Origin: a virus
IMG/VR virus record: IMGVR_UViG_3300045988_119033
Reading direction: 5' to 3' (one strand)
DNA: 64,000 nucleotides
Made by a program: the position numbers and the translations under genes. This document shows positions 6,435 to 60,420 of this stretch, one piece after another. Below the pieces are notes generated by a model. It was not told the origin of the DNA. It saw only the letters and a program-made list of their open reading frames with translations, and ran no database searches. Positions within the stretch are counted from its first letter, which is position 1. Each line of letters opens with the position of its first letter.

Positions 6435-8069
6435 ATGGGAAAGTTTAACAAAAAGGATGAAGGTGTTAAACCTACGATCGTGAATCACATGGGAGAGAAG
6501 GCGTATAAGCCTAACGCAGAAGAAGAGTTGGTATCTACGGTAATGACTACCATGTTATCTGATTCTTATTATGAGAAAGAAAAAGATAAAGTAGAAAGAA
6601 TTAAGAGCCTTATGGATCAAATAGATCCGTATTTCGCAGCACAAACAGCATTGTATGTCAGGAAAGAAGGAAAGCTTAGGTCAGTAACGCATCTTATGGC
6701 TTCTGTCCTTGCCAGCAAAGCATCGGGTAAGGAATGGGCTTCAAGGTTCTATAACAAGATCGTTATGCGTCCTGATGATATGAGCGAAATCCTTGGCTGT
6801 TATGCGGCTCTTAACGACAAAAATCCAAAGAAGTTAAGAGGAATATCCAGCGCTATTAAGAAAGGATTTAAGACGGCTTTGGAAGGTCTTGATCCGTATC
6901 GGATTGATAAGTATAAGATGGACAGTAGGGTCATTACTATGGTTGACTTAGTAAACTTATTTCACCCTAAAGGCAATCAGGCTAACAAAACGGCTTTCCA
7001 GTACCTTATAGAAGGTAGGTCTTTGTCTGGATTATACGAAAGCAAGATTCTTGAAAAAGAAATGTCTAAAGCCGGACAGGATAAGAAAGATAATAAGGAA
7101 AAGAAAGAAGCTTTAGGTGACGCTATTCGGGACGTGGTTTCTAATGTAAAAGGTATGCCTATTTTTAATATGGTTCGTAACCTTGTAAACATAATCAAAT
7201 ACGCACCTGATCAAATAGATGAAGTTTGTAGGCAGCTTACAATAGAAGAGAAGGTGCTTAATTCGAAGATGCTTCCTTTCCGTTTTGCTTCAGCTTTCAA
7301 AGAGGTTGAAAATATGGGCACTGATGGTTCCGATAACGATATTGTATTTGAGTCGGATAAAAAACGAGCTAAATTAACAGCGCGTAATAAATATAAGATT
7401 TTAGATGCGTTGGAGAAAGCCATAACCATCTCCTGCAAGAACTTGCCGGTATTGGAGGGGCGGTCGGCTATCCTGATTGACCACTCTGGCTCTGTACGTG
7501 GAGATATGGGAGGATCTTCTGAAGTGTCTGCCTTTAGCAAAACAAATACGGCTGTCATTGGTAACTTGTTTGGCTGTATGATTGCTTCTGTGCTTCCTGA
7601 CGTATTTATTGGTATGTTTGGTGACAAACTTATCAATTACGAATATGATAGAAGCAGAGGTGTTTTATGGAACAACAAAAAATCTTTTACTGCCGGAGGA
7701 GAATGCGGTGGTGCTACTGAAAACGGTCTTTTTGCATTCTTGGAAAAGTGCATCAAAGATAAGATAAAAGTAGATAACTTGTACGTTATTTCAGATATGC
7801 AGATAGGAGATGGCGAATCTATTGTATGGGAAAAAAGTTCCAATTATGAATATGGTAAATTCGCTGAACTTTTGAAAAAGTTCAAGAAAGTGAATCCAAA
7901 TTGCAAAATCGTTTCTATTTCTATTCAAGGATATGGAAGTGAGATGTTTTACAGAGGATCTAATATCTTGAACATAGCTGGCTGGTCAGAATCTATCTTC
8001 GATGTTATTAACAGCAAGTTCTGCGGATATAAGAATATGATTGAGGAAATTAAGAAAATAAAAATATAA
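6435..8069 (+). CDS. rsr: Ro60/Rsr orthologue (TROVE domain plus C-terminal vWA domain with a DxSGS MIDAS motif)
   Basis: 544 aa, the size of Ro60. The N-terminal TROVE-like stretch (SDSYYEKEK ... FAAQTALYVRKEG) aligns by eye to Ro60. The C-terminal vWA region carries ILIDHSGSV (DxSGS), AGGECG and LYVISDMQ in the order of the Ro60 vWA domain. Confidence 0.7.
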   Translation: MGKFNKKDEGVKPTIVNHMGEKAYKPNAEEELVSTVMTTMLSDSYYEKEKDKVERIKSLMDQIDPYFAAQTALYVRKEGKLRSVTHLMASVLASKASGKEWASRFYNKIVMRPDDMSEILGCYAALNDKNPKKLRGISSAIKKGFKTALEGLDPYRIDKYKMDSRVITMVDLVNLFHPKGNQANKTAFQYLIEGRSLSGLYESKILEKEMSKAGQDKKDNKEKKEALGDAIRDVVSNVKGMPIFNMVRNLVNIIKYAPDQIDEVCRQLTIEEKVLNSKMLPFRFASAFKEVENMGTDGSDNDIVFESDKKRAKLTARNKYKILDALEKAITISCKNLPVLEGRSAILIDHSGSVRGDMGGSSEVSAFSKTNTAVIGNLFGCMIASVLPDVFIGMFGDKLINYEYDRSRGVLWNNKKSFTAGGECGGATENGLFAFLEKCIKDKIKVDNLYVISDMQIGDGESIVWEKSSNYEYGKFAELLKKFKKVNPNCKIVSISIQGYGSEMFYRGSNILNIAGWSESIFDVINSKFCGYKNMIEEIKKIKI

Positions 8070-45175: not shown

Positions 45176-46520
45176 TTACGATCTTTAACAAATCCCCTGC
45201 TTTTAAGCAGGGGATCAATGATTCTTTTATTCATATATGTATTTTTAAATAATTGATTCTGATATATGCCAAAAAGTTATTATTATATTTGTATCATAAA
45301 TGTGGTTAAAAATGATTTCATACAAATATAACATATATTATTCAAAGAAAACGAAGTATCTTGTCAAGATACTTCGCGAATGCTGTTTTGTATGGAATCA
45401 TGCTTTAGCTCTACAACGTAGGTATTACAAACTGTTTGGGAAATATATCTCAGTTGGCAAGATGCAAAAACATTTCTCTAAAAGAATTAAGAGAAATCTT
45501 CTTCATTCCCAAACAACACAAGAAATTATTCAAAGGTTAGATTCAGCATACAATCGCTTCTTCAAGAAGTTGGCTAAACGACCTCCTAAGTTTAAATCAC
45601 CGGAGAAATTCAATTCTTTTGTATTCAAACAAGGAGGGTTTACCCTGAATGGAAATTGTCTAACAATTAACAAAGGAAAGAAACATTTTAAGTTTTCATA
45701 CAGTAGACCTTATGAAGGTAATGTTAAACAAATTAGAATAGTTAGAGAAACCTGTTCCCGTTTTAGTTTGATTATAGTTACAGACCATAATCCTGTAAAC
45801 TCTTATAGAAAGACACATGATGGTGCATCTATCGGATTGGATTTTGGTCTGAAAACTTATCTAACTAAAAGTGATGGTAGCAAAATCGATTCTCCATTAT
45901 TCCTCAAACAATATCAAAACAAGATTAGAAAACTAAACAAACGGTTTTCTAATGCAAAGAAAGGATCCAATAATAAAAGAAGGAGACTGTTTGAACTACA
46001 ACAAGCGTATCGTAAAATAAACAATCTTCGATCAGACTTTCAATGGAAATTAGCTCATGATTTGTGTAAACAATATGATTATATTTTTATTGAAGATCTA
46101 AACATTGAAGGAATGAAACGTTTGTGGGGAAAGAAAGTTTCTGATCTCAGTCATTCTTCTTTTATTGACAAACTTACATATATTGCTTCAAAGTATGGAG
46201 TGATAGTACATAAGATTGACAAATGGTATCCTTCTTCCAAAACTTGTGAATGTGGCTGCATTAATAAAGGACTGTCGTTACGCGACCGCACGTGGGTATG
46301 CCCGTCGTGCGGCGCGGTCAACGACCGTGATGTTCTTGCATCCCGTAATATACTTCGGAAGGGCATTTCCGAATTGGAGAGTAAGAGTAATTCCAACGAT
46401 AGTAATGTCGGGGTTTCTTGCGTTTGTATCCAAGAATCCCATTTGCTTTAGCGATGGGAGTATGTCAAGATCTTAATAGAATCTCCGATATTGTATTCCC
46501 CTTGGTATCCAACGAATTTT
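45176..46520 (+). mobile_element. Putative IS200/IS605-family element carrying tnpB only (IS1341-like); boundaries approximate
   Basis: TTAC at 45176-45179 followed 12 nt later by the subterminal hairpin ATCCCCTGC-TTTTAA-GCAGGGGAT (45192-45215). The 3' 100 nt of tnpB is GC-rich and hairpin-forming. No tnpA in the window. Confidence 0.45.
45300..46451 (+). CDS. tnpB: TnpB (IS200/IS605 OrfB-family RNA-guided endonuclease)
   Basis: The N-terminus YKYNIYYSKKTKYLVKILRECCFVWNHALALQRRYYKLFGKYIS matches the TnpB consensus. The C-terminus has a RuvC-like IFIEDLNIEG and a CxxC...CxxC zinc finger, CECGCINKG...WVCPSCGAVNDRDVLASRNI. Confidence 0.85.
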   Translation: MWLKMISYKYNIYYSKKTKYLVKILRECCFVWNHALALQRRYYKLFGKYISVGKMQKHFSKRIKRNLLHSQTTQEIIQRLDSAYNRFFKKLAKRPPKFKSPEKFNSFVFKQGGFTLNGNCLTINKGKKHFKFSYSRPYEGNVKQIRIVRETCSRFSLIIVTDHNPVNSYRKTHDGASIGLDFGLKTYLTKSDGSKIDSPLFLKQYQNKIRKLNKRFSNAKKGSNNKRRRLFELQQAYRKINNLRSDFQWKLAHDLCKQYDYIFIEDLNIEGMKRLWGKKVSDLSHSSFIDKLTYIASKYGVIVHKIDKWYPSSKTCECGCINKGLSLRDRTWVCPSCGAVNDRDVLASRNILRKGISELESKSNSNDSNVGVSCVCIQESHLL

Positions 46521-50025: not shown

Positions 50026-51443
50026 GCCTTTATTCTATTATAATATTCGATAATCTTTTCTTTTCTATCTCCTGGTTTTACTGCCATATTCTCAGCCAAG
50101 AACCTAAAATACGACACCGGTATGTCCTTGAATCTAATCCCTTCATATTTACCAAACCACATTATTATACTGTCAAGATCGTCTTCTCTCCTACCATCTC
50201 CATTCACAGATTTAAGCGAGGCTGCCCGGCGAAGGATCTCGTCTTTGGTAATAATATCACCCATCCTTATATTGGACAGAAGTTGATCTCCGGCAAACAT
50301 ACACCAGCCCTTAGAAGGGAATTGTTCGATTGTCAAGTCTTCTATCCGACCGAAACGCCTCATGTTGTCGCAGCAATCAACTATCAGCGCCTCTTTCTTG
50401 TCAGGATGGATGCGGACGGCGCGGCCTAATATTTGGTAATATGTTGAATATGAGAATGTTGGGCGACCAAACATCACGCAATCAAGTTCAGGGAAATCAA
50501 ATCCGGTAGCAAGCGTTGAATAATTAAAAACCACCTTCAACTTACCTTCTTTGAAATCTGATATGATTTGCTCTCTTTTCTTTTTGGTTGTTAGCGATGT
50601 TACGACACCGGTTATGGCTCCCATCCTGGCATTCATGAACTCTGATATTCTATTACATGATTCGATAGAATCCATACAAACCAAAATGGCCTTACGTTCG
50701 TTCATAAGTTGAAGAAGGCGCTTGTAGATAGAGTTGTTTAAGCCGTTTCGTACAATACTTTCTTTAATAGATTCATTGGTATATTCGGCTCCGGTACTGT
50801 TTAACATCAGCGCCGATTCATCAAACGACCATCGTTCGTACTTAAGTGGACACCAAAAACCTTGAGAAGTTAGCTCTTGTATTTGAGTCACATGAACTAT
50901 TTTCTTGAAGAAGTTATGTTCGTCTTTCGTCAGCATATTAAGTTTGCTGTAGTTTCCTTCCAGCATGGAACTATAGGTTCGGAGGCGGCAGGGAGTGGCG
51001 GTGAAGCCCAGCACCTTCGCCTCTGGGAACCTGTTCATAAACTCCATAAATTCAGAACCTTCTTCAGGAGAATACCCGCTATGCACCTCATCTATCAATA
51101 ATGTGTCTATCCCTATATCTTTCAACCTTGCTACGTCTTTCTTTATGCTTTTAAGTGTAGCATAAGTCATAGCCGATAACTCTTTTTTTTTACATGAAGC
51201 AGAATATATGGTAGGTTTAGAACCGAATGATACAGCCTTCGCATAATTCTGCTCCAGAATCTCTTTAGATGGCTGTAATACAAGGATAGGTCTTTTTAAT
51301 TCATGAGCTATCTTGCTAATTATCAAAGACTTCCCCGCTGCACACGGCAAGACTTCTATGCCAGGCTTCTTGGATCTTCCTGTAAGGAACTTAAGCCCGG
51401 CATCTACTGCCTCTTTTTGGTAAGGTCTAAGTTCAAAGCCCAT
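50022..51443 (-). CDS. Superfamily-2 DEAD/DEAH-type helicase (ResIII-like)
   Basis: Walker A PCAAGKS, motif II LLIDEVH, motif III GFTATP, motif VI QILGRAVR. Confidence 0.8.
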   Translation of the reverse strand: MGFELRPYQKEAVDAGLKFLTGRSKKPGIEVLPCAAGKSLIISKIAHELKRPILVLQPSKEILEQNYAKAVSFGSKPTIYSASCKKKELSAMTYATLKSIKKDVARLKDIGIDTLLIDEVHSGYSPEEGSEFMEFMNRFPEAKVLGFTATPCRLRTYSSMLEGNYSKLNMLTKDEHNFFKKIVHVTQIQELTSQGFWCPLKYERWSFDESALMLNSTGAEYTNESIKESIVRNGLNNSIYKRLLQLMNERKAILVCMDSIESCNRISEFMNARMGAITGVVTSLTTKKKREQIISDFKEGKLKVVFNYSTLATGFDFPELDCVMFGRPTFSYSTYYQILGRAVRIHPDKKEALIVDCCDNMRRFGRIEDLTIEQFPSKGWCMFAGDQLLSNIRMGDIITKDEILRRAASLKSVNGDGRREDDLDSIIMWFGKYEGIRFKDIPVSYFRFLAENMAVKPGDRKEKIIEYYNRIKA

Positions 51444-51819
51444 CGCAATCTATTTTACTGTTTTTTGAAAGTTCTATTATCGCCTCTTTCAACATCTCCC
51501 TTGCTTTATCTTCGTTATCTTCAAACAGGCATACACTGCATGTGGCACCTTTGGAAGGGTAGTCTCTGTAAGCTTCTGCTCTTTCTGCTACGTACTCACA
51601 ACAGTAGTCGTGACTCATGTTTTTTGCTATACTTATAAAATGATCTTCTCCTTCCATCAACACACAGTATTCAGCATCGTTTTCGCATATAATAACGCCT
51701 TTGTATTTTTTTATGGATAGCACTTTATTTCCAAAAAGTCCAATATAGACCCATATATCTTTCCCTGCATTTTTGTAAAAATTATCCATCTCTTCTTTGA
51801 TTGTAACTTTCTTTTCCAT
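51433..51819 (-). CDS. Hypothetical protein (128 aa), Cys-containing
   Basis: ORF. Confidence 0.4.
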   Translation of the reverse strand: MEKKVTIKEEMDNFYKNAGKDIWVYIGLFGNKVLSIKKYKGVIICENDAEYCVLMEGEDHFISIAKNMSHDYCCEYVAERAEAYRDYPSKGATCSVCLFEDNEDKAREMLKEAIIELSKNSKIDCDGL

Positions 51820-51825
51820 AACCCC

Positions 51826-52140
51826 TTATTTTATATCAGTAATTAAAACATATCTTTCGACAATATCTTCAAGCTCCATAGAACATAACAAACTTGGGCT
51901 TTTTCCGTACTCGTACAGAGCGTACCCTTCCTTTATATCTAATATCTTGATTATATGCTTGCCTCTTTCAAATGGATCCATGAAGTAGCCTTTGTATTCG
52001 TATCTTTGACCTACTTTTATTTTGTCGGTTTTCTTCTTCATCTTATACCGATCTATCACTATGCTTATTTTTATAAGAATCGTTACAAACAGGTATAATA
52101 ATAAAAAGACCGCTGCTCCTGTTATCAATGCTTCTTTCAT
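51826..52140 (-). CDS. Small membrane protein (104 aa; N-terminal TM helix)
   Basis: AVFLLLYLFVTILIKISIVI. Confidence 0.4.
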   Translation of the reverse strand: MKEALITGAAVFLLLYLFVTILIKISIVIDRYKMKKKTDKIKVGQRYEYKGYFMDPFERGKHIIKILDIKEGYALYEYGKSPSLLCSMELEDIVERYVLITDIK

Positions 52141-52306
52141 TGTATTTATTTTAAATAGTTAAACCAAATAGCCTCAAGTTTCTCCTGGAACTCAAACGCC
52201 TTTTTAAAATTTCCGCACCGTACCGCCACGTTCCTCATCTCTTCAAGATATATAACTTCCGGATCTTGCCGGTATTTTGTTCTTAACTTTTGAACGTCCT
52301 CGTATT

Positions 52307-53326
52307 TCATCGTTTTATCTTTTTAGACGGATCCCAATCTGAAGAGAAAGGGCATTCGTTTTTGTTATGTAATCCAAAGTCACAATAATAACACAGTGCC
52401 GACGGGCAGGGCAGCTTGTTTTGCGAAACATGCTGGCTTAGGGTGGCACGCCGCTTGCTATATCTGGCCCCTTCTGCTCCCTGGATGTATGCTTGAAATG
52501 CTTTTACACTATTATCTTCAAAATCATACATTTTAGATAAAGTGTCATTTAGCATCTCTATAGATTTTGTTTTACGTTCCTCATCTACCTTAACCTTTTG
52601 GTACTGCCTGGTTCTGGTAAAGAAATAGATGTTCATATCTGGTAGAACCCCACCATATCTTCTATAGATGTAAAACGAATATATAGGATGCTGTAAATTT
52701 GTTTCCAGCTTCTTAGAATCAAAAACCTTATTTCCCGATTTCCAATCTATGACATAATGATGGATCACTCCTTTGCTTTTTATAGCCAGATGAAGGTCTA
52801 CCGACCCCACTATATACACATGAGTATGAACGGTCCCATTTATATCAACTGGCTTAGGAAGACGGTACGGCAGCACAAAATCTTCTTCGACTCCAACTAT
52901 AGCGCCGTGTCTGATAAGTTTCTCGCAGGGATTAAGATCACTATCAGCTATCATAAACCTATTGCCGTCTTTTTTGAACAGATCCACAATCCAAGCAAGA
53001 AGCTCTCCAGATTGCTTCATGGCTATCATCATATTTTCCGGTGATTGCCAAGGTATGTCTTCTTGGTAAGCATAGTAACTTATAGCTTCCCCCAGGTCTT
53101 TGCCAGAAGGCTGTCTTCCGTTCTTGAAGAAGTATTCCAGTGTCTTATGAATAACCGTACCATAAGACGTAGCTTCTTGTTTTTCCGTAGACCTTTTGCC
53201 CTCCACGTAAGTTTTATACCATTTCATTGGACAAGTAAGAAACGTATCTATCTGGGAATAAGATATGGCAAGACGTTTCACACCATTAAACTCCTTATAT
53301 AGCAAATGCGTTTCCGGGACCATCAT
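52307..53326 (-). CDS. Cas4/RecB-like PD-(D/E)xK nuclease with a C-terminal Cys cluster
   Basis: The N-terminus YSQIDTFLTCPMKWY is typical of the PDDEXK_1 family. The C-terminus has CPSALCYYC...ECPF. Confidence 0.55.
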   Translation of the reverse strand: MMVPETHLLYKEFNGVKRLAISYSQIDTFLTCPMKWYKTYVEGKRSTEKQEATSYGTVIHKTLEYFFKNGRQPSGKDLGEAISYYAYQEDIPWQSPENMMIAMKQSGELLAWIVDLFKKDGNRFMIADSDLNPCEKLIRHGAIVGVEEDFVLPYRLPKPVDINGTVHTHVYIVGSVDLHLAIKSKGVIHHYVIDWKSGNKVFDSKKLETNLQHPIYSFYIYRRYGGVLPDMNIYFFTRTRQYQKVKVDEERKTKSIEMLNDTLSKMYDFEDNSVKAFQAYIQGAEGARYSKRRATLSQHVSQNKLPCPSALCYYCDFGLHNKNECPFSSDWDPSKKIKR

Positions 53327-53682
53327 AAGTCATTGTCTTTAAATCCTTCCGGGTAATATACGACATACTTCTTACCGTCTTCTGGTGTCATGGCAAACTG
53401 CATGTAGTTATTACGATTACGATGCTTGCCATCCAATCCTCGTTTCCAATACAGGATACCGTCTATATCCACATAAGATCGGCCGCGGTCGGCTCTAACC
53501 ACGTCCGTGTGTAGCAGATACCCGTCGGAAGACACAATCCACACTTTATCCCCTTTGCTTAAATAAGATATTCTTTTTCTTACAACAACCCTTTTCTTAT
53601 TATCCAATACAAATTCCTCGTCAGTCATACTCTTCATCCTCCTCTTCTTCTGTTTCAAAATCAATTCCATAATACTGATCAT
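53323..53682 (-). CDS. Hypothetical protein (119 aa)
   Basis: ORF. Confidence 0.4.
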   Translation of the reverse strand: MISIMELILKQKKRRMKSMTDEEFVLDNKKRVVVRKRISYLSKGDKVWIVSSDGYLLHTDVVRADRGRSYVDIDGILYWKRGLDGKHRNRNNYMQFAMTPEDGKKYVVYYPEGFKDNDL

Positions 53683-53835
53683 AATGCTTGGTCAGTTCTT
53701 CTGGTTCTAAATCTTGTCCAAAATCCATGTTAAAAATATCGTAATTAGTAAAGCACTGTTCCTGCCGGCAGGAAATCTATGAATGCTGCTTTTATTTCTT
53801 CAATTAGGCCCAAGTGTAACCTTGGGCCATTGTAT

Positions 53836-55536
53836 TTATTTTTTGTCATCTCCTTTTAGCTTCTTTAAAGTATCTGCAATCGGAAGCTGATCAATGACTC
53901 CCAATGCCGGAGCGACGGTCTTAACAACATTGTTAAGGAAATTACCGGTACTGTTCTGACCGCCGTCAAATACCGTGATATTTCCGAGGTTAATGTGCTC
54001 AAATGCCTTAACCTGTTCTCCAGCAATTTCTTTCCACTGATTAACCATCTTGTACTGGATGGCTATCTGAGGATTGGATTCTGCTGCTTCCACCATAGCC
54101 TTAAATCCCTCTGCTTCTGCCATCAACGACTTTTTCTTACCTTCGGCTTCTGCTTCCAACTTCATCTTAATAGCCTTTGCTTCGGCTTCTGCTTTTGCCA
54201 AATTGGCTGCTGCTTCAGCGGCAGCCCGGCGTTTAATCTTTTCTGCTTCAGCATCAGCTTGCAAAATAGCTTCTTGCTTCTGGGTTTCAGCCGGCACAAT
54301 CTTTTCAGCTCGAAGCGCAGCTTGAACTTTCTCAGCCTTAGCCTCTTCCACTTCTTTATCAGCAAGCTCTTTTGCCGTTTTTACAGCCGCTTCCGACTTA
54401 ACCCTCTCTTCTCCAGCCTTCTTTTCTGATTGAGCTTTGATAACCTGTAATTCTGATTCTGATATAGCAACCTCTTTCTGGGCATTGTTATAACCCACAG
54501 ATGCGTTTTTCTCAGCTTCAGCTTTCTTGATCTGAGCTTCGGAATCTTGGATTGCTATAGCTGCTTGTTTATCAGCCTCAGCCTTATTCTTTCCGACTTC
54601 TTCCATTCTTTCAGCCTCAGCTTTGTTTACCTCAAGTTCTGCCTTAGATCTTGCAATCGCCGATTCTTTGTCAGCCAAAGTCTTTGCAATAACCGCAGCC
54701 CTATCTCTATCGGCTTGAGCTACACCGATCTGTTTTTCTTTATCGGTTAAAGCCAAAGCTACTTCTTTTTCTTTCTTTGTTTCAGCTACTACCGTTTCCT
54801 TTTCTTTTTCAGTATAGGCAATTTGAATCTCTTGCTCTTTTTGGGTATTAGCTACAGCCGTTTCTTTTTCCTTTTGCTGTACAGCAATCTTAATAGCACC
54901 CAGCTTTTCCTGTTCTTCGATATTAGCCTGTGCTTCGTTCAGGGCCTTACTTTCAGCTTCTTTGCCAAGATTCATGATATAGCCGGCTTCGTCTCTGATG
55001 TCACTGATGTTGATATTTAGGAGGTAAAGGCCTAACTTATTAAGTTCGTTATCAATGTTTTTTCTTGCCTTATCCAAAAACTCATCCCTGTCAGAATTAA
55101 GTTTTTCAATCGTCATTTCAGCAATGATCAAACGCATTTGGCCATAAACGATATCCGTAATAAGATTTTCAGTAGATTCAGTATCCATCCCCAAAAGCCT
55201 TTCTGCTGCATTCTGCATAATTTCAGGATTTGTGCTGATTGCTACTGTAATAGTAGTAGGTACATCCACTCTGATATTTTGAGACGACAAAGCACCGGTG
55301 AGCCTACAATCTATTTGCATAGGCTCCATAGACAAAATATCATAGCTTTGAATAATAGGCAAGACGAATGCCGCTCCACCATGATATAATTTCGCCGATT
55401 TCTTTTCCCCACCTGTCTTACCATAAACGACCAAGACTTGATTAGGCTTACATCTACGATACCTTGATAAGACTCCGATGATTGTCAAAATAATCACTAC
55501 AGCTAAAATAGCTGACACGTACATGATTGTTGTCAT
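53836..55536 (-). CDS. floT: Flotillin (FloT/YuaG-like SPFH/band-7 protein with EA-repeat coiled coil)
   Basis: N-terminal TM helix, then an SPFH core (KPNQVLVVYGKTGG, GGAAFVLPIIQSYDILS, ISDIRDEAGYIMNLGKEAESKA) that aligns closely with B. subtilis FloT. Long Glu/Ala/Lys-rich repeats follow. Confidence 0.8.
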   Translation of the reverse strand: MTTIMYVSAILAVVIILTIIGVLSRYRRCKPNQVLVVYGKTGGEKKSAKLYHGGAAFVLPIIQSYDILSMEPMQIDCRLTGALSSQNIRVDVPTTITVAISTNPEIMQNAAERLLGMDTESTENLITDIVYGQMRLIIAEMTIEKLNSDRDEFLDKARKNIDNELNKLGLYLLNINISDIRDEAGYIMNLGKEAESKALNEAQANIEEQEKLGAIKIAVQQKEKETAVANTQKEQEIQIAYTEKEKETVVAETKKEKEVALALTDKEKQIGVAQADRDRAAVIAKTLADKESAIARSKAELEVNKAEAERMEEVGKNKAEADKQAAIAIQDSEAQIKKAEAEKNASVGYNNAQKEVAISESELQVIKAQSEKKAGEERVKSEAAVKTAKELADKEVEEAKAEKVQAALRAEKIVPAETQKQEAILQADAEAEKIKRRAAAEAAANLAKAEAEAKAIKMKLEAEAEGKKKSLMAEAEGFKAMVEAAESNPQIAIQYKMVNQWKEIAGEQVKAFEHINLGNITVFDGGQNSTGNFLNNVVKTVAPALGVIDQLPIADTLKKLKGDDKK

Positions 55537-55567
55537 AACTTTTAAAATTTAATTGTTGATAAAAAAA

Positions 55568-56062
55568 TTAGATACTTAATTCTCCTTCTTCGTATTTTAT
55601 ATTCACCTTGTCACCGTTTTTGTAATTTTTTCCAGACAAGCACCTCACTCTCATCTGTTCCTGTCTTCCATTTTTAGAAATATTTACCATATAATGATTC
55701 TTACCTGATCTAAATACTATCTCCACCTCTCTGCCATTTAAATCTTCCGGACATTCGTACACCATTTCTTGTTTTAACTTAAGAAGTAACTTATATACGT
55801 AAAACAAAACGATAAAGAAAAATGACCCTATTACGACCCCTACTAAATGGGAACCCGAAAAGTATGTGGTCCAGCTATATCCAAGAATAAAATGTGTTAT
55901 GCCCTTGAATGATATGATGTCCGACAAAGACATGCTTAAATCAGAAGCGCTGTTAATGTCAATATCCGTATCCAGATCAGATCCTAATATCGATAACAAA
56001 AACTGTATAACAAAAGCAAATGACGCTATTAAAGCCATGCATAAAATTATATCACTTCCCAT
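55568..56062 (-). CDS. NfeD-family membrane protein (flotillin partner; TM helices plus C-terminal OB-fold)
   Basis: Three hydrophobic helices followed by the beta-rich GREVEIVF...GDKVNIKYEEGELSI. Sits immediately upstream of the flotillin gene, as in the floT-nfeD and yqiK-yqiJ operons. Confidence 0.6.
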   Translation of the reverse strand: MGSDIILCMALIASFAFVIQFLLSILGSDLDTDIDINSASDLSMSLSDIISFKGITHFILGYSWTTYFSGSHLVGVVIGSFFFIVLFYVYKLLLKLKQEMVYECPEDLNGREVEIVFRSGKNHYMVNISKNGRQEQMRVRCLSGKNYKNGDKVNIKYEEGELSI

Positions 56063-56303
56063 ATCCTTCTGTTATTATTTTGTAAACAAGATCAGTCATT
56101 TCTTTGATGGATTCTGTATAATAATCAATAATAACAATATTGAATTTTTGTTCCACCATCACATCAAGCTCAACTTTATCAATAGAATCTAATCCAAGTT
56201 CTTCAAACGACACATCTTCTTCATGAATCATATCCATTTCCGAATGAAGAAACTGAGTAATAATCATATCCTCTATGATCTTTCTGATTTCTACTTTTTC
56301 CAT
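56052..56303 (-). CDS. acpP: Acyl carrier protein
   Basis: 83 aa. SFEELGLDSIDKVEL aligns with the ACP phosphopantetheine-attachment motif (DSL) and helix II. Confidence 0.7.
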   Translation of the reverse strand: MEKVEIRKIIEDMIITQFLHSEMDMIHEEDVSFEELGLDSIDKVELDVMVEQKFNIVIIDYYTESIKEMTDLVYKIITEGYGK

Positions 56304-57004
56304 TGCTTTCTAATTTTATTAAATAAATACGTTTTTATGTTTTTCAACCTCTCTTTGTCTGTTTCCGAACTTCCGGTAAACAAATAATCCGGATTTCCTT
56401 TAGCCGGCGGCGTAGGCAATTTAGATACGGCAAACAACCAATCCATTTCCTTATTCTTCTTAGACTCCAAATAAGGCTCGGTAGCGATCTTAAATTTTTC
56501 AGCTATTAAGTCAAAGAGCTTTGAGTTTTTAAGGTTCATATGGACTGAAAAAGCCTGAGAAGGCGGTTTCCATATGAAGTTACATAAGCTCATTGTGTAA
56601 TCTCCTGACTCTGCTATATAAGATTCTGTTACCTGAAGTATGACCTCTTTCTTAAATGAGGTGTTACCCATAAACCAACACAATCTGGATTCCGCTTCTT
56701 TTCTGCTGACACCTATGTCTTTTGAATATGATTCGTACATTCCTATCATAATCTTCAACGTTTCCAGAACCTCGTCCGTCATTTCCGGTGTCTCTATATA
56801 ATTCACAAAAGACGTTCCTTTGTTGGTTAATCTCATCACGCCTGATTTTAATTTCTCAACCAGGCCAAGCTCTATATACCTCCCAGCATCTTCTTCCGGC
56901 ATGGCTTCGATCATAACCGAATCCTTCTGTCTTATGGCAAGAAGATTAGCGAGATCATTAGGAGTCATGTCTGATGCTGCAAGTTGTCTGAAATTGATGT
57001 ACAT
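56291..57004 (-). CDS. Hypothetical protein (237 aa) in the same operon as the ACP
   Basis: ORF overlapping the ACP start. Confidence 0.45.
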   Translation of the reverse strand: MYINFRQLAASDMTPNDLANLLAIRQKDSVMIEAMPEEDAGRYIELGLVEKLKSGVMRLTNKGTSFVNYIETPEMTDEVLETLKIMIGMYESYSKDIGVSRKEAESRLCWFMGNTSFKKEVILQVTESYIAESGDYTMSLCNFIWKPPSQAFSVHMNLKNSKLFDLIAEKFKIATEPYLESKKNKEMDWLFAVSKLPTPPAKGNPDYLFTGSSETDKERLKNIKTYLFNKIRKQWKK

Positions 57005-57006
57005 GC

Positions 57007-57213
57007 CTAATCAGCTTTAATAAAAATAACATCCTTGTTATCCTCCCTCTCCGCGTGATTACACGGACCTGCAACCACACCCACTGCCCCGCATGTAAAG
57101 TAATTAAATATACATCCTTCACATCCTGCATCTGGTGCCGTAGGTTCTACGCATTTTAATCTCACAAGTCCGGCATCAAACACTTCTCCTATTTTAAATT
57201 CCTTCTTTTCCAT
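57007..57213 (-). CDS. Small Cys-rich protein (68 aa)
   Basis: Five Cys: CVEP...CEGC...C...C. Confidence 0.4.
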   Translation of the reverse strand: MEKKEFKIGEVFDAGLVRLKCVEPTAPDAGCEGCIFNYFTCGAVGVVAGPCNHAEREDNKDVIFIKAD

Positions 57214-57228
57214 ATTTCCTCCTTGTTT

Positions 57229-57831
57229 TTAACTGTTGTATCCTTCTTTGATAATCGAATTTCTACCGGTAGATACCGACTGTCGAAGATCGTCATGTAC
57301 AGAATCTACCGTAGAATACTTGTTTCTGGTTGTAAAAATCACTTCCAGCATCTCCTTGTAATCACCTAAAGCCACTTCGTATCTTGGATCCACTTTGGCT
57401 TTTCTTTCAGCCTCGGCATTACTTTTAGCCAGCTCTCGGTCGAGAAGATCTTCTTTGATTCGGTCAGCAATCATATCAAGCTCTTTTTTGATTACTTCGC
57501 CGGCTGCCCGAAGTTGACCTTCTACGTCACCAAGCTGATCTTGGACGGTTCCTATTTCTTTCTTTAAACGATCGTATTCGTTAATCATACCCATATCACC
57601 TGCATAGCCGGAAAAGTCCTTGATTATTCTGGTTCCTTCTTTAAGGAGCTCAATAACTCGTCTTTTGCGTTCTCTGCTTATTAAAGACGGAAGACGATAA
57701 TTCATATCCGCCACCGCCTTGTCGTGTATGGAGTTGATTAAAAACATCTCTCTTTCATCCCCTGCGAACTCAGTAAGAACCAAAAGGAACTTACTTATCA
57801 GGTATTCGTTTTCTTCTACGGTAAGTCTCAT
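57229..57831 (-). CDS. Hypothetical coiled-coil protein (200 aa)
   Basis: ORF. Confidence 0.45.
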   Translation of the reverse strand: MRLTVEENEYLISKFLLVLTEFAGDEREMFLINSIHDKAVADMNYRLPSLISRERKRRVIELLKEGTRIIKDFSGYAGDMGMINEYDRLKKEIGTVQDQLGDVEGQLRAAGEVIKKELDMIADRIKEDLLDRELAKSNAEAERKAKVDPRYEVALGDYKEMLEVIFTTRNKYSTVDSVHDDLRQSVSTGRNSIIKEGYNS

Positions 57832-57844
57832 ACGTTTCTTTTTT

Positions 57845-58978
57845 TTAATATACTGACTGTTCTTCCTTTACCTCTTGTTCTTGATCTTGATTGTTCGTAA
57901 CGTCTTCCACAGTATAGAGCTTGGGCGGCGTCGGCGGCTGGTTGGGGTTCACGAACTTCGTCCCTCCCTCCCCGTACATCCATCCATGCCCCGGCAGGAT
58001 CTCTGGGTGGATTGTATTAGTAAGCTCTTCCATACTAACTTGCCTTACCTTCAGTATATGATGAAACACCAGTCCGGCTGTCCTGAATGATGTTTTGTTT
58101 TCAGTTTTAAACCGGTCAAGAGTCTGATACCAATCTTTCCCAAATATCATATACTTATCCAGTCCGTATCTGCGAGGATTATGCAAGCCTATCATTAACG
58201 TACATAACTGACCCAGCGTATCAGATTGGTAAAAATCAGAAAGACGCGGAGGCTGCTCTTGAGGGCTTTTTATCCTTCCTTCTATCTCTCTGTTGAATTG
58301 GGATATGATGAGGAAAAATATGTTTTTATATACTAATTTAGCCTCGTTCATAACCGCCACCAAATCATCTATAGCCGACTTAGGATCCAATCCCATTCTT
58401 TTTATCAAAGCAATATGATCGACTTTAAATATTATAAGACGTTTGTCTTTATGCTTAGTAGCTATATGATATACAGCCGCCTCAAACTCTTTTACCGTAC
58501 ACGGAGCGTCGATGTATATTATATTATTTCTGATTTCACCTTGAAGGATTTCAAACATCCTCATCTCTTCTACTGTATTAGAATCTTGCCTTCTTAATAT
58601 TTCAGGAGCCCGCTTTTTCATATCCTGACTCATTCTGCGAAGAAGAAGATCTTGAGGATTCATTTCGAACTCGCAATTGACAAGAAAATAATCTTCTGCT
58701 TGCGGGTTGATCATCGGATTCATCACATTTTCCAATATCTTTTGGGCCACATACGATTTACCTACAGATGGCCGGGCTCCTATGGCAATAGCGTGCTGAG
58801 GAAAAATACCTCCAAGCAAAGCCTCATCAATATAATCGTATCCGGTTTTAGCGGGGATAAGCTCTCCCCGCCTGTATTTCAAAATATTCTCATACGCCTC
58901 TTCCATAACCTGTTTAGAGGTCTTGAATATCCTTCTTATGTCTATCCTATTTGCTATCTCCTCGTGCATTTTTGTCAC
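57845..58978 (-). CDS. DnaB-like helicase, C-terminal (RecA-fold) domain
   Basis: Walker A GARPSVGKS and overall DnaB_C-like layout. At 377 aa it is too short to include the N-terminal DnaB domain. Confidence 0.6.
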   Translation of the reverse strand: MTKMHEEIANRIDIRRIFKTSKQVMEEAYENILKYRRGELIPAKTGYDYIDEALLGGIFPQHAIAIGARPSVGKSYVAQKILENVMNPMINPQAEDYFLVNCEFEMNPQDLLLRRMSQDMKKRAPEILRRQDSNTVEEMRMFEILQGEIRNNIIYIDAPCTVKEFEAAVYHIATKHKDKRLIIFKVDHIALIKRMGLDPKSAIDDLVAVMNEAKLVYKNIFFLIISQFNREIEGRIKSPQEQPPRLSDFYQSDTLGQLCTLMIGLHNPRRYGLDKYMIFGKDWYQTLDRFKTENKTSFRTAGLVFHHILKVRQVSMEELTNTIHPEILPGHGWMYGEGGTKFVNPNQPPTPPKLYTVEDVTNNQDQEQEVKEEQSVY

Positions 58979-59225
58979 CTTTTGTATCCGATTTGGATCC
59001 CCTATTAGCTTTTACTGATTTATACCTAAGACCGTTCTTGGTATGAGAACAATCCTTGCCTTTCCTCCAGCCCTTACCCTTCTTCTTGTCCGTTTCGTAG
59101 TTTTTACGACCAAGCTCCCGGCGTTTGGCTTTCTGTTCCGGTCTGGCATTTATCTCCTTGTCCTTTTTAGCCTTTTTCTTCCTGGCTTCGGGGTGAGTCC
59201 TGTAGTACTCTGTTGATCTGCCCAT
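58947..59225 (-). CDS. Highly basic small protein (92 aa)
   Basis: Lys/Arg-rich ORF. Confidence 0.35.
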   Translation of the reverse strand: MGRSTEYYRTHPEARKKKAKKDKEINARPEQKAKRRELGRKNYETDKKKGKGWRKGKDCSHTKNGLRYKSVKANRGSKSDTKGDKNARGDSK

Positions 59226-59277
59226 GTGCTTATATTTTTTTTGATTAATAATAGCACAAAGATAGGCAATTCGCGCC

Positions 59278-59844
59278 CTATTTCAACCTGCCGTAGCTCA
59301 TATCAGGATCACACCAGACATACCCGTCTTTCTCATCATGAAGATACTCAGGACATCCTCTACATGCGCTACTTCCTGACACTATTTGATTGTTTTTATT
59401 AGGGCACTTATCTCCGGGTTTATGCCATTCTATTCTCGAACCTGATCGTTCTTTGTTTACATGACAGAACTGAAAGACTTTTCCCATCGTCTTCTCGCCA
59501 AACATACCTATATGTGTGTACTCTTCCGGTATAGCGAGAAATTCAGATAAATCTTTATACATCCTTTCCCGTTCCTCCGGCGTAGACCATAGTCTGTCAA
59601 GTTCGGCATGGACTCTTATCTTAAGAGGCCTCAGTGATGGCCCCGCAAGCCGGCCTTTAGCTTTTCCCTTATTCGGCCCTGATTCATGAACACCGACATA
59701 AGCATTGCATGGTTTGCACATCATAACCATCCCTAAGCCTTTTCTGTTATATATTTTATCGGCATTGACCAGCTCAGTTTCTTTTCCGCAATAAGGACAA
59801 ATTTCGCCTCTTAAAACCCGTTGTTGGCGCTCATTAAGTTCCAT
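59278..59844 (-). CDS. Zinc-finger protein (188 aa)
   Basis: CPYCG ... CKPC and further Cys/His clusters. Confidence 0.45.
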   Translation of the reverse strand: MELNERQQRVLRGEICPYCGKETELVNADKIYNRKGLGMVMMCKPCNAYVGVHESGPNKGKAKGRLAGPSLRPLKIRVHAELDRLWSTPEERERMYKDLSEFLAIPEEYTHIGMFGEKTMGKVFQFCHVNKERSGSRIEWHKPGDKCPNKNNQIVSGSSACRGCPEYLHDEKDGYVWCDPDMSYGRLK

Positions 59845-60086
59845 ACCCTATTCTTTTGTTTTTCTTTAAACTTTTCATACAAACTGCTTTCAGTTTCCAT
59901 TTCTGAGATCTCTACCTCTACGTCCTCTCTTTTGAAAATTACTTTCTTGGCTGTCGGATACGCACATTTAGAGATACGAATAGCGTTACGAATAGCGTAA
60001 ACAAAATACGTTTCTGGTGACGATTCGATCACCACTACCTCATTTAAAGTGTTTTTGTAATTTTCCATATCATCTACTTGCTTCAA
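59811..60086 (-). CDS. Hypothetical protein (91 aa)
   Basis: ORF. Confidence 0.35.
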   Translation of the reverse strand: MKQVDDMENYKNTLNEVVVIESSPETYFVYAIRNAIRISKCAYPTAKKVIFKREDVEVEISEMETESSLYEKFKEKQKNRVWNLMSANNGF

Positions 60087-60420
60087 TTATATAACCCGGA
60101 TGATCTTCGCACGCCTCTTTATATTCGATAAGAAACTTAAGAAATGAATCATAAGACCCCCATCCATTTTCCGGCTCGTATTTCAAAAGACTTTTTCTCT
60201 TGGAGATCATAATACATATACCTTTTGTAAGTACATTCTTCATCTCATTGGTATATATTTCTCTATACAATTCTTCTGGTCTCCAAACATAATCGTACAG
60301 CGTTTCTTTATTTTCTGATACGAATATTCTTTGTGCCATCTTGTTCATGTTATGGGTGATGTTTGCAACCCATTCACGATCTTCTTCCTTCTTGTTCTTA
60401 ATATAAACATCCAGGCTCAT
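60070..60420 (-). CDS. Hypothetical protein (116 aa)
   Basis: ORF. Confidence 0.4.
   Translation of the reverse strand: MSLDVYIKNKKEEDREWVANITHNMNKMAQRIFVSENKETLYDYVWRPEELYREIYTNEMKNVLTKGICIMISKRKSLLKYEPENGWGSYDSFLKFLIEYKEACEDHPGYIIEASR

What the first reader, a model, noticed from the sequence alone, without database searches (positions are those of the whole stretch)
56052..57213. Acyl carrier protein, a 68-aa Cys-rich peptide and an unknown 237-aa protein co-transcribed with the flotillin pair
ORF 56052-56303 has the ACP phosphopantetheine site (LGLDSIDKVEL). Upstream in the same overlapping operon are a 237-aa protein with no recognisable domain and a 68-aa peptide with five Cys. Phage-borne ACPs are rare. 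Coupling an ACP to a flotillin/NfeD pair hints at a lipid- or acyl-related membrane-remodelling cassette, or at acylation or other processing of the small Cys-rich peptide.
Basis: partly seen in the sequence, partly recalled or inferred. Interest (0 to 1): 0.6.

Follow-up and report, generated by a model that had tools for sequence, protein, structure and literature searches.

The report
Phage ACP-like gene in mosaic operon
The three genes are real, but they are independent add-ons and core replication genes packed together in a common human-gut crAss-like phage, not a lipid or peptide-acylation machine; the acyl-carrier-like protein evolves fast and a sister lineage has lost its cofactor-attachment serine, so it probably acts by binding host proteins.

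Summary
Observation confirmed. All three ORFs exist at the stated coordinates. The 83-aa ORF passes Pfam PP-binding narrowly (23.3 bits, cutoff 20.8) and has LGLDS. The 68-aa ORF has five Cys. The 237-aa ORF has no Pfam hit. The window is ~95% identical to phage csAssE-Sib (151 kb, human gut), where the ACP and flotillin are already annotated.

The functional reading is not supported. Across related phages the backbone is DnaB, a 200-aa protein, [slot A], the 237-aa protein, [slot B], a 119-aa protein, a PD-(D/E)XK exonuclease. Slot B can be empty, or hold unrelated ORFs, or ACP + Dcm methylase, or ACP + NfeD-like + flotillin. Within this species, flotillin is cleanly deleted in 17 of 80 genomes while the ACP stays intact. 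The Cys peptide occurs only in this species. It is a Cys4 zinc-binding-type domain shared with unrelated Bacteroides phages. No PPTase or acyl enzyme was found.

The 237-aa protein has an N-terminal MarR-like winged helix and belongs to a large phage family (phrog_32643) that stays next to DnaB-type helicases. The ACP is AcpP-derived and acidic. Its dN/dS is 0.48, against 0.01-0.09 for neighbours, with variation on helix II. A sister clade (23 clusters) has Asp or Asn instead of the acceptor Ser. Best guess, inferred: it modulates or decoys host ACP partners.

The parts
57845..58978 (-). DnaB-like replicative helicase. Core backbone gene and the upstream anchor of the block.
   Evidence: Pfam DnaB_C 8.9e-17 and PHROG 37407 2.6e-40. 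Present in nearly all related loci. dN/dS 0.06.
57229..57831 (-). Conserved 200-aa protein (cc200) with predicted coiled-coil character and unknown function. Core backbone gene that always sits between DnaB and the 237-aa gene.
   Evidence: No significant family hit. Homologs at 42-100% identity in 11 of 15 compared loci. dN/dS 0.01.
57007..57213 (-). 68-aa Cys-rich protein in accessory slot A. Small Cys4 (CxxC...C...C) zinc-binding-type domain that is hypervariable within the species.
   Evidence: Five Cys, of which C31, C34, C41 and C51 are invariant across homologs. Weak PHROG 33085 hit. Homologs in crAss-like phage cr108_1 (as the N-terminal domain of a 207-aa protein) and in B. thetaiotaomicron phages BT528P1 and BT498P1. 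Absent from L169, L088 and the other lineages. Nucleotide divergence 23% against a 2-6% background. dN/dS 0.49. At least two core allele types.
56291..57004 (-). 237-aa core protein (p237). N-terminal MarR-like winged helix (about residues 1-90) plus an all-helical C-terminal domain. Member of a large phage family that stays linked to DnaB-type helicases. Candidate replisome organizer, helicase loader or early regulator.
56052..56303 (-). 83-aa AcpP-derived acyl-carrier-like protein, the first gene of accessory slot B. Acidic (pI 4.3), with Ser40 in LGLDS. Evolving fast on helix II and the following loop.
   Evidence: PP-binding 23.3 bits vs 20.8. PHROG 5934. Best NCBIfam matches are all AcpP models but below cutoff. 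Matches PDB ACPs. Ser is invariant in 41 full-length variants, with hot spots at positions 41, 43-45, 47-48 and 58-64. dN/dS 0.48 with dS equal to that of its neighbours. The sister clade has Asp or Asn at the Ser position.
55568..56062 (-). 164-aa membrane protein upstream of flotillin ('NfeD-like' by architecture and position only).
   Evidence: No NfeD hit in Pfam, NCBIfam, the PDB or PADLOC for this copy or the L169 copy. Found only where the ACP(Ser) + flotillin arrangement occurs. Retained when flotillin is deleted. dN/dS 0.07.
53836..55536 (-). 566-aa flotillin (SPFH/Band 7 + Flot). Lineage-specific and dispensable cargo.
   Evidence: Band_7 2.5e-25 and Flot 1.6e-9. Present only in the window species and L169. 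No tblastn hit in 17 of 80 same-species loci. Rare among deposited phages: csAssE-Sib, Vibrio phage KIT04 at 29% identity, and a few fragments.
53735..55565 (.). About 1.83-kb presence/absence indel comprising the flotillin ORF and its 3' GC-rich hairpin (53807-53828). Junctions are A/T-rich.
   Evidence: Coverage drop from 78 to 60 loci. Gap of about 60 bp between the NfeD-like gene and p119 in flotillin-less loci. Junction alignments. Hairpin.
53323..53682 (-). 119-aa conserved protein (p119) of unknown function. Core gene immediately upstream of the exonuclease and the downstream boundary of slot B.
   Evidence: Homologs at 43-97% identity in 9 of 15 loci, always just upstream of PDDEXK. 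dN/dS 0.08.
52307..53326 (-). PD-(D/E)XK exonuclease. Core backbone gene.
   Evidence: Pfam PDDEXK_1 6.4e-21 and PHROG 69. Conserved in all lineages with enough flank.

Best explanation
The region is not one functional cassette. It is a stretch of the early/replication transcription block of an abundant human-gut crAss-like phage (the csAssE-Sib species). Conserved replication genes are interleaved with two insertion slots for lineage-specific accessory genes. The core genes are DnaB, a 200-aa partner protein, the 237-aa winged-helix protein, a 119-aa protein and a PD-(D/E)XK exonuclease.

Shown:
- The 237-aa protein is a core, strongly constrained member of a large phage-only family that stays beside DnaB-type helicases.
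- Slot A here holds a small Cys4 zinc-binding-type protein that is also found in unrelated Bacteroides phages.
- Slot B here holds an AcpP-derived carrier-like protein, then a membrane protein and a flotillin.
- The flotillin is dispensable and is deleted in about a fifth of genomes.
- The ACP recurs with different cargo.
- A sister clade of the ACP has lost the acceptor serine.
- The ACP and the Cys protein change amino acids far faster than their neighbours.

Inferred:
- The 237-aa protein is a DNA-binding replication organizer, helicase-loading factor or early regulator.
- The ACP-like protein was captured from a type II fatty-acid-synthase AcpP. It now acts mainly through its partner-binding face (helix II) on host proteins that normally dock ACP, as a competing or decoy carrier used for host takeover or counter-defence.
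- If it is phosphopantetheinylated at all in this species, the host AcpS must do it.
- It does not feed acyl groups to the flotillin pair or to the Cys peptide.
For: Mosaic synteny. Slot B is:
- empty in L171 and L170;
- filled with unrelated ORFs in L089 and L090;
- ACP(Asp) + Dcm methylase in L088, L092, L094, L095 and L172;
- ACP(Ser) + NfeD-like + flotillin in the window, L001, L096 and L169.

Flotillin is cleanly deleted in 17 of 80 same-species loci with the ACP and the NfeD-like gene intact.

The Cys peptide is restricted to this species within the group but is shared with cr108_1 and B. thetaiotaomicron phages without ACP neighbours. Its four Cys are invariant.

No PPTase or acyl-enzyme domain occurs in the 46 other window ORFs, and none is annotated in the csAssE-Sib regions read.

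ACP origin and evolution:
- It is AcpP-type. The L169 copy passes TIGR00517 (74.3 vs 70.45), the window copy scores 29 bits and the Asp forms score 33-41 bits on TIGR00517.
- All 23 clusters of the sister clade carry D or N at the Ser position, yet score 34-41 bits on PP-binding.
- dN/dS is 0.48 for the ACP and 0.49 for Cys68, against 0.01-0.09 for seven neighbouring genes at similar dS.
- Variable sites cluster at Ser+1 and along helix II and the following loop, while LGLDS is invariant.
- The protein is acidic, pI 4.3.

Cellular ACP is a known interaction hub beyond lipid synthesis, for example with SpoT (PMC3340395) and MukB (PMC8602292).

p237:
- 285-member family;
- DnaB or DEAD helicase neighbours even in 20-30% identical relatives;
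- dN/dS 0.03.
Against: - No direct evidence shows what the ACP binds, or whether it is modified.
- Ser40 is invariant in this species, which fits a true holo-carrier as well as it fits a structural helix N-cap.
- Gene-wide dN/dS of 0.48 is below 1. It could reflect relaxed constraint rather than an arms race, and the pairwise method ignores recombination and shared ancestry.
- One ACP loop allele is enriched on flotillin-less genomes (7 of 9 against 7 of 62; nominal p 2e-5). This could reflect functional coupling rather than linkage.
- The ACP gene always overlaps the 3' end of the 237-aa gene, so a role with that protein is not excluded.
- Only about 13 independent lineages were sampled, and only 7-10 kb of flank was read, so partner genes elsewhere in those genomes would be missed.
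Confidence: 0.6

Rival explanations
1. ACP, the NfeD-like protein and flotillin form one lipid or membrane-remodelling cassette. The phage ACP supplies or channels acyl chains to build or modify membrane microdomains that are organised by the phage flotillin.
For: - The three genes are adjacent and overlapping in the window and in L169, a lineage whose p237 is 77% identical.
- No internal terminator was detected.
- One ACP loop allele is non-randomly associated with flotillin absence.
- Ser40 is conserved in exactly the lineages that carry flotillin.
Against: - Flotillin is deleted in 17 of 80 genomes with the ACP intact and still constrained.
- The ACP occurs with a methylase instead of flotillin in a sister lineage.
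- No acyl-handling enzyme was found.
- The evolutionary rates are discordant: ACP dN/dS 0.48 against 0.04 for flotillin and 0.07 for the NfeD-like gene.
- The NfeD identity itself is unsupported.
Confidence: 0.12
2. The ACP is a true holo-carrier auxiliary metabolic gene. After modification by the host AcpS it boosts or redirects host fatty-acid, phospholipid or lipid A synthesis during infection, independently of flotillin.
For: - It is AcpP-type by all best profile matches, and the L169 copy passes the AcpP equivalog cutoff.
- LGLDS with Ser is invariant in this species.
- Phage ACP modules have been proposed as AMGs elsewhere (PMC13573597).
Against: - The sister clade keeps the fold but has Asp or Asn at the attachment site in all 23 clusters, so the conserved family function cannot require the cofactor.
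- The window copy has drifted to 29 bits against a 70-bit AcpP cutoff.
- It varies most on the helix that FAS enzymes and AcpS recognise, which is unexpected for a carrier that must serve about 10 conserved host enzymes.
Confidence: 0.18
3. The ACP or associated chemistry modifies the 68-aa Cys-rich peptide, as in a lipopeptide or RiPP-like product.
For: The peptide is small and Cys-rich and lies about 0.7 kb from an ACP in the same orientation. Both genes are fast-evolving.
Against: - The peptide is absent from every other ACP-bearing lineage.
- Its homologs lie in phages with no ACP nearby, and once it is an N-terminal domain of a 207-aa protein.
- Four invariant Cys in a CxxC...C...C pattern with conserved flanking strands fit a structural zinc site, not a leader-core precursor.
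- No modifying enzyme was found.
- ACP and Cys alleles assort independently (p 0.09).
Confidence: 0.03
4. The ACP-like protein is an accessory subunit of the replication module. It binds the 237-aa winged-helix protein (or DnaB) as an acidic regulator, which would explain the constant gene overlap.
For: - In every ACP-bearing lineage the ACP start overlaps the 3' end of the 237-aa gene, whatever follows it.
- p237 is basic (pI 8.3) and the ACP is acidic (pI 4.3).
- Cellular ACP is known to act as a non-enzymatic partner of a DNA-organising ATPase, MukB (PMC8602292).
Against: - At least 7 sampled lineages with a conserved 237-aa protein have no ACP next to it.
- p237 is almost invariant (dN/dS 0.03) while the ACP's binding face varies, which is the opposite of co-evolving partners.
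- Gene overlap is the norm throughout this operon.
Confidence: 0.08
5. The ACP is a decaying passenger gene with no current function, and its high non-synonymous rate is simply relaxed constraint.
For: dN/dS is ten-fold above its neighbours. A few assemblies carry truncated or frameshifted copies. The profile score has eroded.
Against: - dN/dS is still well below 1.
- The ORF is intact at 83 aa in 41 distinct variants, with invariant LGLDS, helix I and MVEQK.
- The gene is retained across lineages whose 237-aa proteins are only 58-77% identical to the window's copy, and in a separate Asp clade that still scores 34-41 bits.
Confidence: 0.07

Closest known systems
Bacterial type II fatty-acid-synthase acyl carrier protein AcpP (Pfam PF00550 PP-binding; NCBIfam TIGR00517)
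   Same: Size (83 aa), acidity (pI 4.3) and an LGLDS motif with Ser at the start of helix II. The best profile and PDB matches are all AcpP-type or mitochondrial ACPs. The related L169 copy passes the AcpP equivalog cutoff.
   Different: - The window copy scores 29 bits against a 70.45 cutoff.
- It is encoded in a phage replication operon with no fab, pls or acpS genes.
- It has a high non-synonymous rate concentrated on the recognition helix.
- A sister clade lacks the acceptor Ser.
Phage-encoded ACPs (PHROG 5934; ACP modules reported in jumbophages, e.g. [quoted passage not shown]
   Same: A small stand-alone ACP-like gene in a Bacteroidota-infecting phage, annotated as an AMG or moron. PHROG 5934 match at 5e-8. 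The literature describes it only as a putative host-interface function.
   Different: Here it is a single copy in the replication block of a crAss-like phage, not in a 17-gene secreted or lipoprotein island. The Ser-less clade and the within-species diversification were not described in the papers I could read.
DnaD / SPP1 G38P-G39P / lambda O-type replisome organizers and helicase loaders
   Same: - The 237-aa protein has an N-terminal winged helix followed by a helical domain.
- It is encoded one gene away from a DnaB-type helicase.
- The synteny persists in distant relatives.
   Different: No sequence-profile match to DnaD, DnaB_2 or any named family. The fold scores are in the range of generic helical bundles. 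No iterons were found. The only significant viral structure match is an uncharacterized Cellulophaga phage phi14:2 protein.
Bacterial flotillin-NfeD operons (from my own knowledge: B. subtilis yuaF-floT and yqeZ-floA; not checked in the papers read here)
   Same: A membrane protein gene lies directly upstream of, and overlaps, an SPFH/flotillin gene. The flotillin has Band_7 + Flot domains.
   Different: The upstream protein matches no NfeD model. The pair is phage-borne. The flotillin half is presence/absence polymorphic while the upstream gene is kept.
Small Cys4 zinc-ribbon or zinc-knuckle proteins of phages (PHROG 33085, unknown function)
   Same: CxxC...C...C with four invariant Cys, about 65-70 aa, found among early genes of Bacteroides phages.
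   Different: No structure or metal-binding data exist. The core between the ligands is unusually variable within one phage species.

Membership tests
Acyl carrier protein (PP-binding, PF00550) | Profile match above the curated gathering score | tested here: met
   23.3 bits against 20.8, E 7.6e-5. The margin is small. PHROG 5934 at 5e-8.
Acyl carrier protein (PP-binding, PF00550) | Conserved Ser in a (D/G)xDS(L/I) motif at the N-terminus of helix II, the phosphopantetheine attachment site | tested here: met
   LGLDS with Ser40, invariant in 41 full-length variants of this species. It is NOT met in the sister clade, which has GFD[DN]LD or GFNDLD in all 23 clusters.
Acyl carrier protein (PP-binding, PF00550) | Actual 4'-phosphopantetheinylation and acyl loading | not testable with these tools
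   Needs intact-mass spectrometry or an in-vitro AcpS/Sfp assay.
Acyl carrier protein (PP-binding, PF00550) | Genomic association with a PPTase or ACP-dependent enzymes | tested here: not met
   The 46 other window ORFs have no ACPS, acyltransferase, AMP-binding, ketoacyl-synthase or thioesterase domain. None is annotated in the parts of csAssE-Sib that I read. Record positions 100001-107299 were not read, and about 60% of genes are hypothetical.
AcpP equivalog (NCBIfam TIGR00517 / NF002148) | Score above the equivalog cutoff | tested here: not met
   Window copy: 29.0 against 70.45. The L169 relative passes (74.3; NF002148 80.7 against 71). The Asp forms score 33-41 on TIGR00517.
NfeD (PF01957) | Profile match to the NfeD C-terminal OB-fold domain | tested here: not met
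   No hit at E <= 1 in Pfam for the window or L169 copies. None in NCBIfam, the PDB or PADLOC.
NfeD (PF01957) | Membrane protein encoded immediately upstream of an SPFH gene | tested here: met
   Hydrophobic N-terminal segments by eye. There is an 11-nt overlap with the ACP, and the gene ends 31 nt before the flotillin start. It is retained when flotillin is deleted. No structure was predicted.
Flotillin / SPFH | Band_7 (SPFH) domain plus a Flot C-terminal domain, with an N-terminal membrane anchor | tested here: met
   Band_7 2.5e-25 (90 bits against 23.6) and Flot 1.6e-9 (38.3 against 27).
DnaD-like replisome organizer / helicase loader | N-terminal winged-helix domain | tested here: met
DnaD-like replisome organizer / helicase loader | DnaD C-terminal (DnaB_2, PF07261) domain | tested here: inconclusive
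DnaD-like replisome organizer / helicase loader | Conserved linkage to the replicative helicase gene | tested here: met
   DnaB_C lies within 0.1-4 kb in L005, L088, L089, L090, L169, L170, L171, L172, L176, L177 and the window. L007 and L091 lack upstream flank.
DnaD-like replisome organizer / helicase loader | Iterons or an origin in or next to the gene | tested here: not met
   No repeat family in 56000-59500. The only repeats lie in the flotillin coiled coil.
RiPP / lipopeptide precursor (for the 68-aa ORF) | Conserved linkage to modifying enzymes; leader-core organisation | tested here: not met
   No modifying enzyme in the window. Homologs sit in unrelated contexts, and one is fused as an N-terminal domain. 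The conserved ends and four invariant Cys fit a folded zinc domain.

The most novel reading that the evidence does not exclude
The AcpP-derived protein is a phage counter-measure that mimics the host acyl carrier protein. By docking through helix II onto a host protein that normally reads ACP, it blocks or hijacks that protein. The target could be a lipid-synthesis enzyme, a stringent-response or chromosome-organising partner, or an ACP-dependent defence or toxin system. The Ser-less clade would be the fully committed decoy form. The within-species diversification of helix II would record an arms race with variable host targets. The neighbouring hypervariable Cys4 protein would be a second, independent host-interaction factor in the same early operon.
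Probability: 0.2. Interest if true: 0.7.

Novelty: new variant of a known kind. Interest (0 to 1): 0.4.

Why it matters
crAss-like phages are among the most abundant viruses of the human gut, and most of their early genes have no known function.

- **Negative result:** The ACP, the Cys peptide, the 237-aa protein and the flotillin pair are separable modules. This removes an attractive but unsupported 'lipid cassette' story.
- **237-aa protein:** It can now be placed in a large DnaB-linked winged-helix family (phrog_32643), which gives a testable replication or regulatory role for a core gene.
- **ACP:** An AcpP-derived protein diversifies on its recognition helix, and one lineage has dispensed with the cofactor serine. 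That is a concrete candidate for a protein-mimicry style of host takeover or anti-defence. If confirmed, it would add carrier-protein mimicry to the known phage repertoire.
- **Flotillin:** The clean presence/absence polymorphism gives a natural experiment on what a phage-borne SPFH scaffold contributes.

Tried and rejected
1. Single-cassette idea: rejected by the synteny and deletion data.
2. Sequence-based naming of the 237-aa protein led nowhere beyond a winged helix. I tried Pfam, PHROGs, NCBIfam, PADLOC, PDB profiles from three alignments, and transitive Pfam scans of 52 distant relatives.
4. NfeD identity: no support from any library.
5. Defence-system membership: no PADLOC hit for any of the seven proteins.
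6. Diversity from IMG/VR: the scans were swamped by one species. Queries with P0024, P0039 and alignment A8 returned nothing or failed.
7. Origin or iteron search near p237: negative.
8. Sigma-70 promoter scan: at chance level, 22 found against 22.4 expected. It is not informative for a phage with its own transcription apparatus.
9. Literature on csAssE-Sib, and on crAss with ACP or flotillin: nothing specific. I also found no citable open-access statement on apo-ACP toxicity, so that point stays as my own recollection (Keating, Carey and Cronan 1995) and is not used as evidence.
10. The DGR annotated in csAssE-Sib as a source of the ACP and Cys variability. Its annotated VR and TR lie in the tail-fibre region at 45.7-46.3 kb of the record, far from this block. 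I did not test this further.
11. Locating the Tad2-like ORF in the window: not found among the ten ORFs rescanned.


Full report
**What is there**

On the minus strand of the window lies a tightly packed run of genes:
- DnaB-like helicase, 57845-58978
- a 200-aa protein, 57229-57831
- the 68-aa Cys-rich ORF, 57007-57213
- the 237-aa ORF, 56291-57004
- the 83-aa ACP-like ORF, 56052-56303
- a 164-aa membrane protein, 55568-56062
- a 566-aa flotillin, 53836-55536
- a 119-aa protein, 53323-53682
- a PD-(D/E)XK exonuclease, 52307-53326

The genes overlap or abut: 13 nt between the 237-aa gene and the ACP, and 11 nt between the ACP and the membrane protein. No terminator-like site lies on the coding strand inside the block. 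Co-transcription is therefore plausible, though not demonstrated.

The ACP passes Pfam PP-binding narrowly (23.3 bits against 20.8) and PHROG 5934 'acyl carrier protein' at 5e-8. It aligns to solved ACPs over residues 5-78. The peptide has exactly five Cys. The 237-aa protein has no family hit.

The window is about 95% identical to phage csAssE-Sib (OR575929.1; 151 kb; human gut). In that record the ACP and flotillin are already annotated as such and the other two genes as hypothetical.

**Is it one cassette? Comparative test**

I collected the neighbourhood of 237-aa homologs across a range of divergence. The loci were L001 and L096 (98-100% identity), L169 (77%), L170 (63%), L088 and L092 (60%), L172, L094 and L095 (57-58%), L089 (57%), L171 (53%), L090 (44%), L091 (43%) and L005 and L007 (36-37%).

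A conserved backbone emerges: primase ... DnaB, the 200-aa protein, [slot A], the 237-aa protein, [slot B], the 119-aa protein, the PD-(D/E)XK exonuclease, ... a DEAD helicase.

Slot B varies by lineage:
- empty in L171 and L170;
- unrelated small ORFs in L089 and L090;
- an ACP-like gene plus a Dcm methylase in five loci (two radical-SAM genes follow after the 119-aa homolog);
- ACP + membrane protein + flotillin only in the window species and L169.

Slot A holds the Cys peptide only in the window species. L169, the nearest ACP + flotillin relative, has nothing there, and the methylase lineage has a 121-aa protein.

**Within-species evidence**

In 80 IMG/VR loci whose 237-aa protein is at least 98% identical to the window's, the flotillin gene is missing in 17. 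About 60 bp separates the membrane-protein gene from the 119-aa gene in those loci, and the ACP and membrane-protein genes remain intact. Junction alignments place the indel at about window 53735-55565. That span is the flotillin ORF plus its 3' hairpin, with A/T-rich ends. Flotillin is therefore dispensable cargo.

ACP and Cys-peptide allele types occur in all combinations (p about 0.09). One ACP loop allele is enriched on flotillin-less genomes (7 of 9 against 7 of 62), but every combination exists. The genes are also only about 0.5 kb apart, so linkage is a sufficient explanation.

These loci are metagenome assemblies, many from one dataset, and they are not independent samples. The p-values are nominal.

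**No partner enzymes**

A Pfam scan of the 46 other gene-like ORFs in the window found no PPTase, acyltransferase, acyl-ACP or AMP ligase, ketosynthase or thioesterase. None is annotated in the parts of csAssE-Sib that I read. Positions 100001-107299 were not read, and most genes there are 'hypothetical'. No protein of the block matches a PADLOC defence model.

**The ACP**

All best NCBIfam matches are AcpP-type models:
- the L169 copy passes the equivalog cutoff (TIGR00517 74.3 against 70.45; NF002148 80.7 against 71);
- the window copy has drifted to 29 bits;
- the methylase-lineage copies score 33-41 bits on TIGR00517.

This argues for capture of a type II FAS carrier protein followed by divergence.

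The methylase-lineage copies, and all 23 database clusters of that clade, have Asp or Asn at the acceptor position (GFDDLD, GFDNLD or GFNDLD) and never Ser. These proteins still score 34-41 bits on PP-binding, which is higher than the window copy. A conserved ACP fold that cannot carry the cofactor at the canonical site shows that the family can be maintained without carrier chemistry.

In the window species, Ser40 and LGLDS are invariant across 41 full-length variants. The residue after Ser takes six different amino acids, and further hot spots lie along helix II (43-45, 47-48) and the next loop (58-64).

Pairwise Nei-Gojobori estimates:

| Gene | dN/dS |
|---|---|
| ACP | 0.48 |
| Cys peptide | 0.49 |
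| DnaB | 0.06 |
| 200-aa protein | 0.01 |
| 237-aa protein | 0.03 |
| membrane protein | 0.07 |
| flotillin | 0.04 |
| 119-aa protein | 0.08 |
| exonuclease | 0.05 |

The ACP's dS (0.107) equals that of its neighbours. The excess is therefore non-synonymous change, not import of a distant allele. This pattern is compatible with diversifying selection on the partner-binding face or with partial relaxation of constraint; I could not separate the two.

Cellular ACP is a known hub that binds proteins outside lipid synthesis, such as SpoT (PMC3340395) and MukB (PMC8602292). That makes a binding or decoy role biologically reasonable. This step is inference.

**The Cys peptide**

Homologs occur in another crAss-like phage, cr108_1, as the N-terminal domain of a 207-aa protein. 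They also occur as 70-aa proteins in 38-kb B. thetaiotaomicron phages, among early genes with no ACP or flotillin nearby. Four Cys (CxxC...C...C) and the flanking motifs (GE.F, R.D..V.F) are invariant. The first Cys is not.

Within the species the ends are conserved, and the core between the ligands exists in at least two length and sequence types. Nucleotide divergence is 23% against a 2-6% background. This fits a small zinc-binding domain used as an independent host-interaction or regulatory factor. It does not fit a modified-peptide precursor.

**The 237-aa protein**

A profile search of 1.84 billion representatives finds 285 relatives, many of them 175-200-aa proteins covering profile positions 1-170. 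Of 52 sampled distant members, 38 match phrog_32643, whose function is unknown. Pfam recognises only winged-helix models. Two such distant relatives again lie beside DnaB_C or DEAD-type helicases. No relative occurs in 185,579 bacterial and archaeal species genomes. No iterons were found near the gene.

I conclude that it is a core, DNA-binding component of the replication or early module. A replisome organizer or helicase loader is my preferred guess, and an early transcription regulator is the main alternative.

**The flotillin pair**

The flotillin is a solid SPFH + Flot protein and is rare among deposited phages. The upstream membrane protein cannot be called NfeD on present evidence.

**Verdict**

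The proposed coupling (a lipid or acyl cassette, or acylation of the peptide) is contradicted by independent gain and loss of every component, by the absence of partner enzymes, and by a Ser-less ACP clade.

What remains of interest:
- an AcpP-derived protein that looks like a host-interaction factor;
- a second hypervariable small zinc-domain protein;
- a DnaB-linked winged-helix family;
- a polymorphic phage flotillin.

Overall this is a new variant of known kinds and of moderate interest.

Noticed in passing
window 53735-55565: The flotillin gene plus its 3' hairpin is a clean presence/absence polymorphism. It is absent in 17 of 80 near-identical genomes, while the upstream membrane-protein gene is kept.
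   Followed up: yes
window 51826-52140 (also 52146-52310 and 51433-51819): A 104-aa protein with a hydrophobic N-terminus is a third within-species hot spot: median 65% protein identity, 17% nucleotide divergence and dN/dS 0.42. The two flanking small genes show 14% nucleotide divergence. No family hit.
   Followed up: partly
L088 7929-10946; L172, L092, L094 and L095 at equivalent positions: The Ser-less ACP lineage carries a Dcm-type C5 methylase directly after the ACP, and two radical-SAM genes before the exonuclease. In L094 the methylase ORF is 635 aa and appears to be interrupted by an intein-like insert. I judged this by eye from the sequence and did not test it. The function of the radical-SAM pair is unknown.
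   Followed up: partly
L005 6142-8571; L089 10014-11837: The DEAD/ResIII helicases of related phages carry intein or homing-endonuclease signatures (Intein_splicing, LAGLIDADG, Hom_end_hint) in the precomputed Pfam hits.
   Followed up: no
window, one of the 46 ORFs scanned (coordinates not determined); L090 5643-5954: A Tad2-like (Thoeris anti-defence 2) domain (1.2e-11) and a weak Lar restriction-alleviation hit (9e-4) occur among the window ORFs. In L090 a Tad2-like gene sits between DnaB and the 200-aa gene, which shows that anti-defence genes do occupy slots in this operon. Ten candidate ORFs were rescanned without locating it.
   Followed up: partly
window 45300-46451 (+): A TnpB/OrfB_IS605-type ORF (383 aa) on the opposite strand sits inside the minus-strand early block. 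I assigned the two Pfam hits to this ORF by its length and strand; the batch output does not name the ORF. Related phages carry TnpB or IS200-type insertions at other positions in the same module (L089, L090, L170).
   Followed up: no
window 6435-8069 (+): A TROVE (Ro60-like) domain hit (2.6e-14) appears among the batch-scanned ORFs. I assign it to this 544-aa ORF because csAssE-Sib annotates an equally long 'Ro sixty-related protein' after two tRNA genes. This ORF was not scanned on its own.
   Followed up: no
window 60070-60420 vs L088 6615-6980: The 116-aa protein encoded next to the primase in the window appears, by eye, to be homologous to the 121-aa protein that occupies slot A (where the Cys peptide sits here) in the methylase lineage. 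If so, small genes have been shuffled within the module.
   Followed up: no
OR575929.1 45751-47816 (outside the window block): csAssE-Sib is annotated with a diversity-generating retroelement: a reverse transcriptase with VR, TR and IMH features targeting a tail-fibre gene. It is not adjacent to the hypervariable ACP and Cys genes, and I did not test it as a source of their variation.
   Followed up: no
window 54080-54630: Imperfect direct repeats of 16-40 nt lie inside the flotillin gene and correspond to its Ala/Glu/Lys-rich coiled-coil segment. This is also the most divergent part of the gene (8-12% nucleotide divergence).
   Followed up: no
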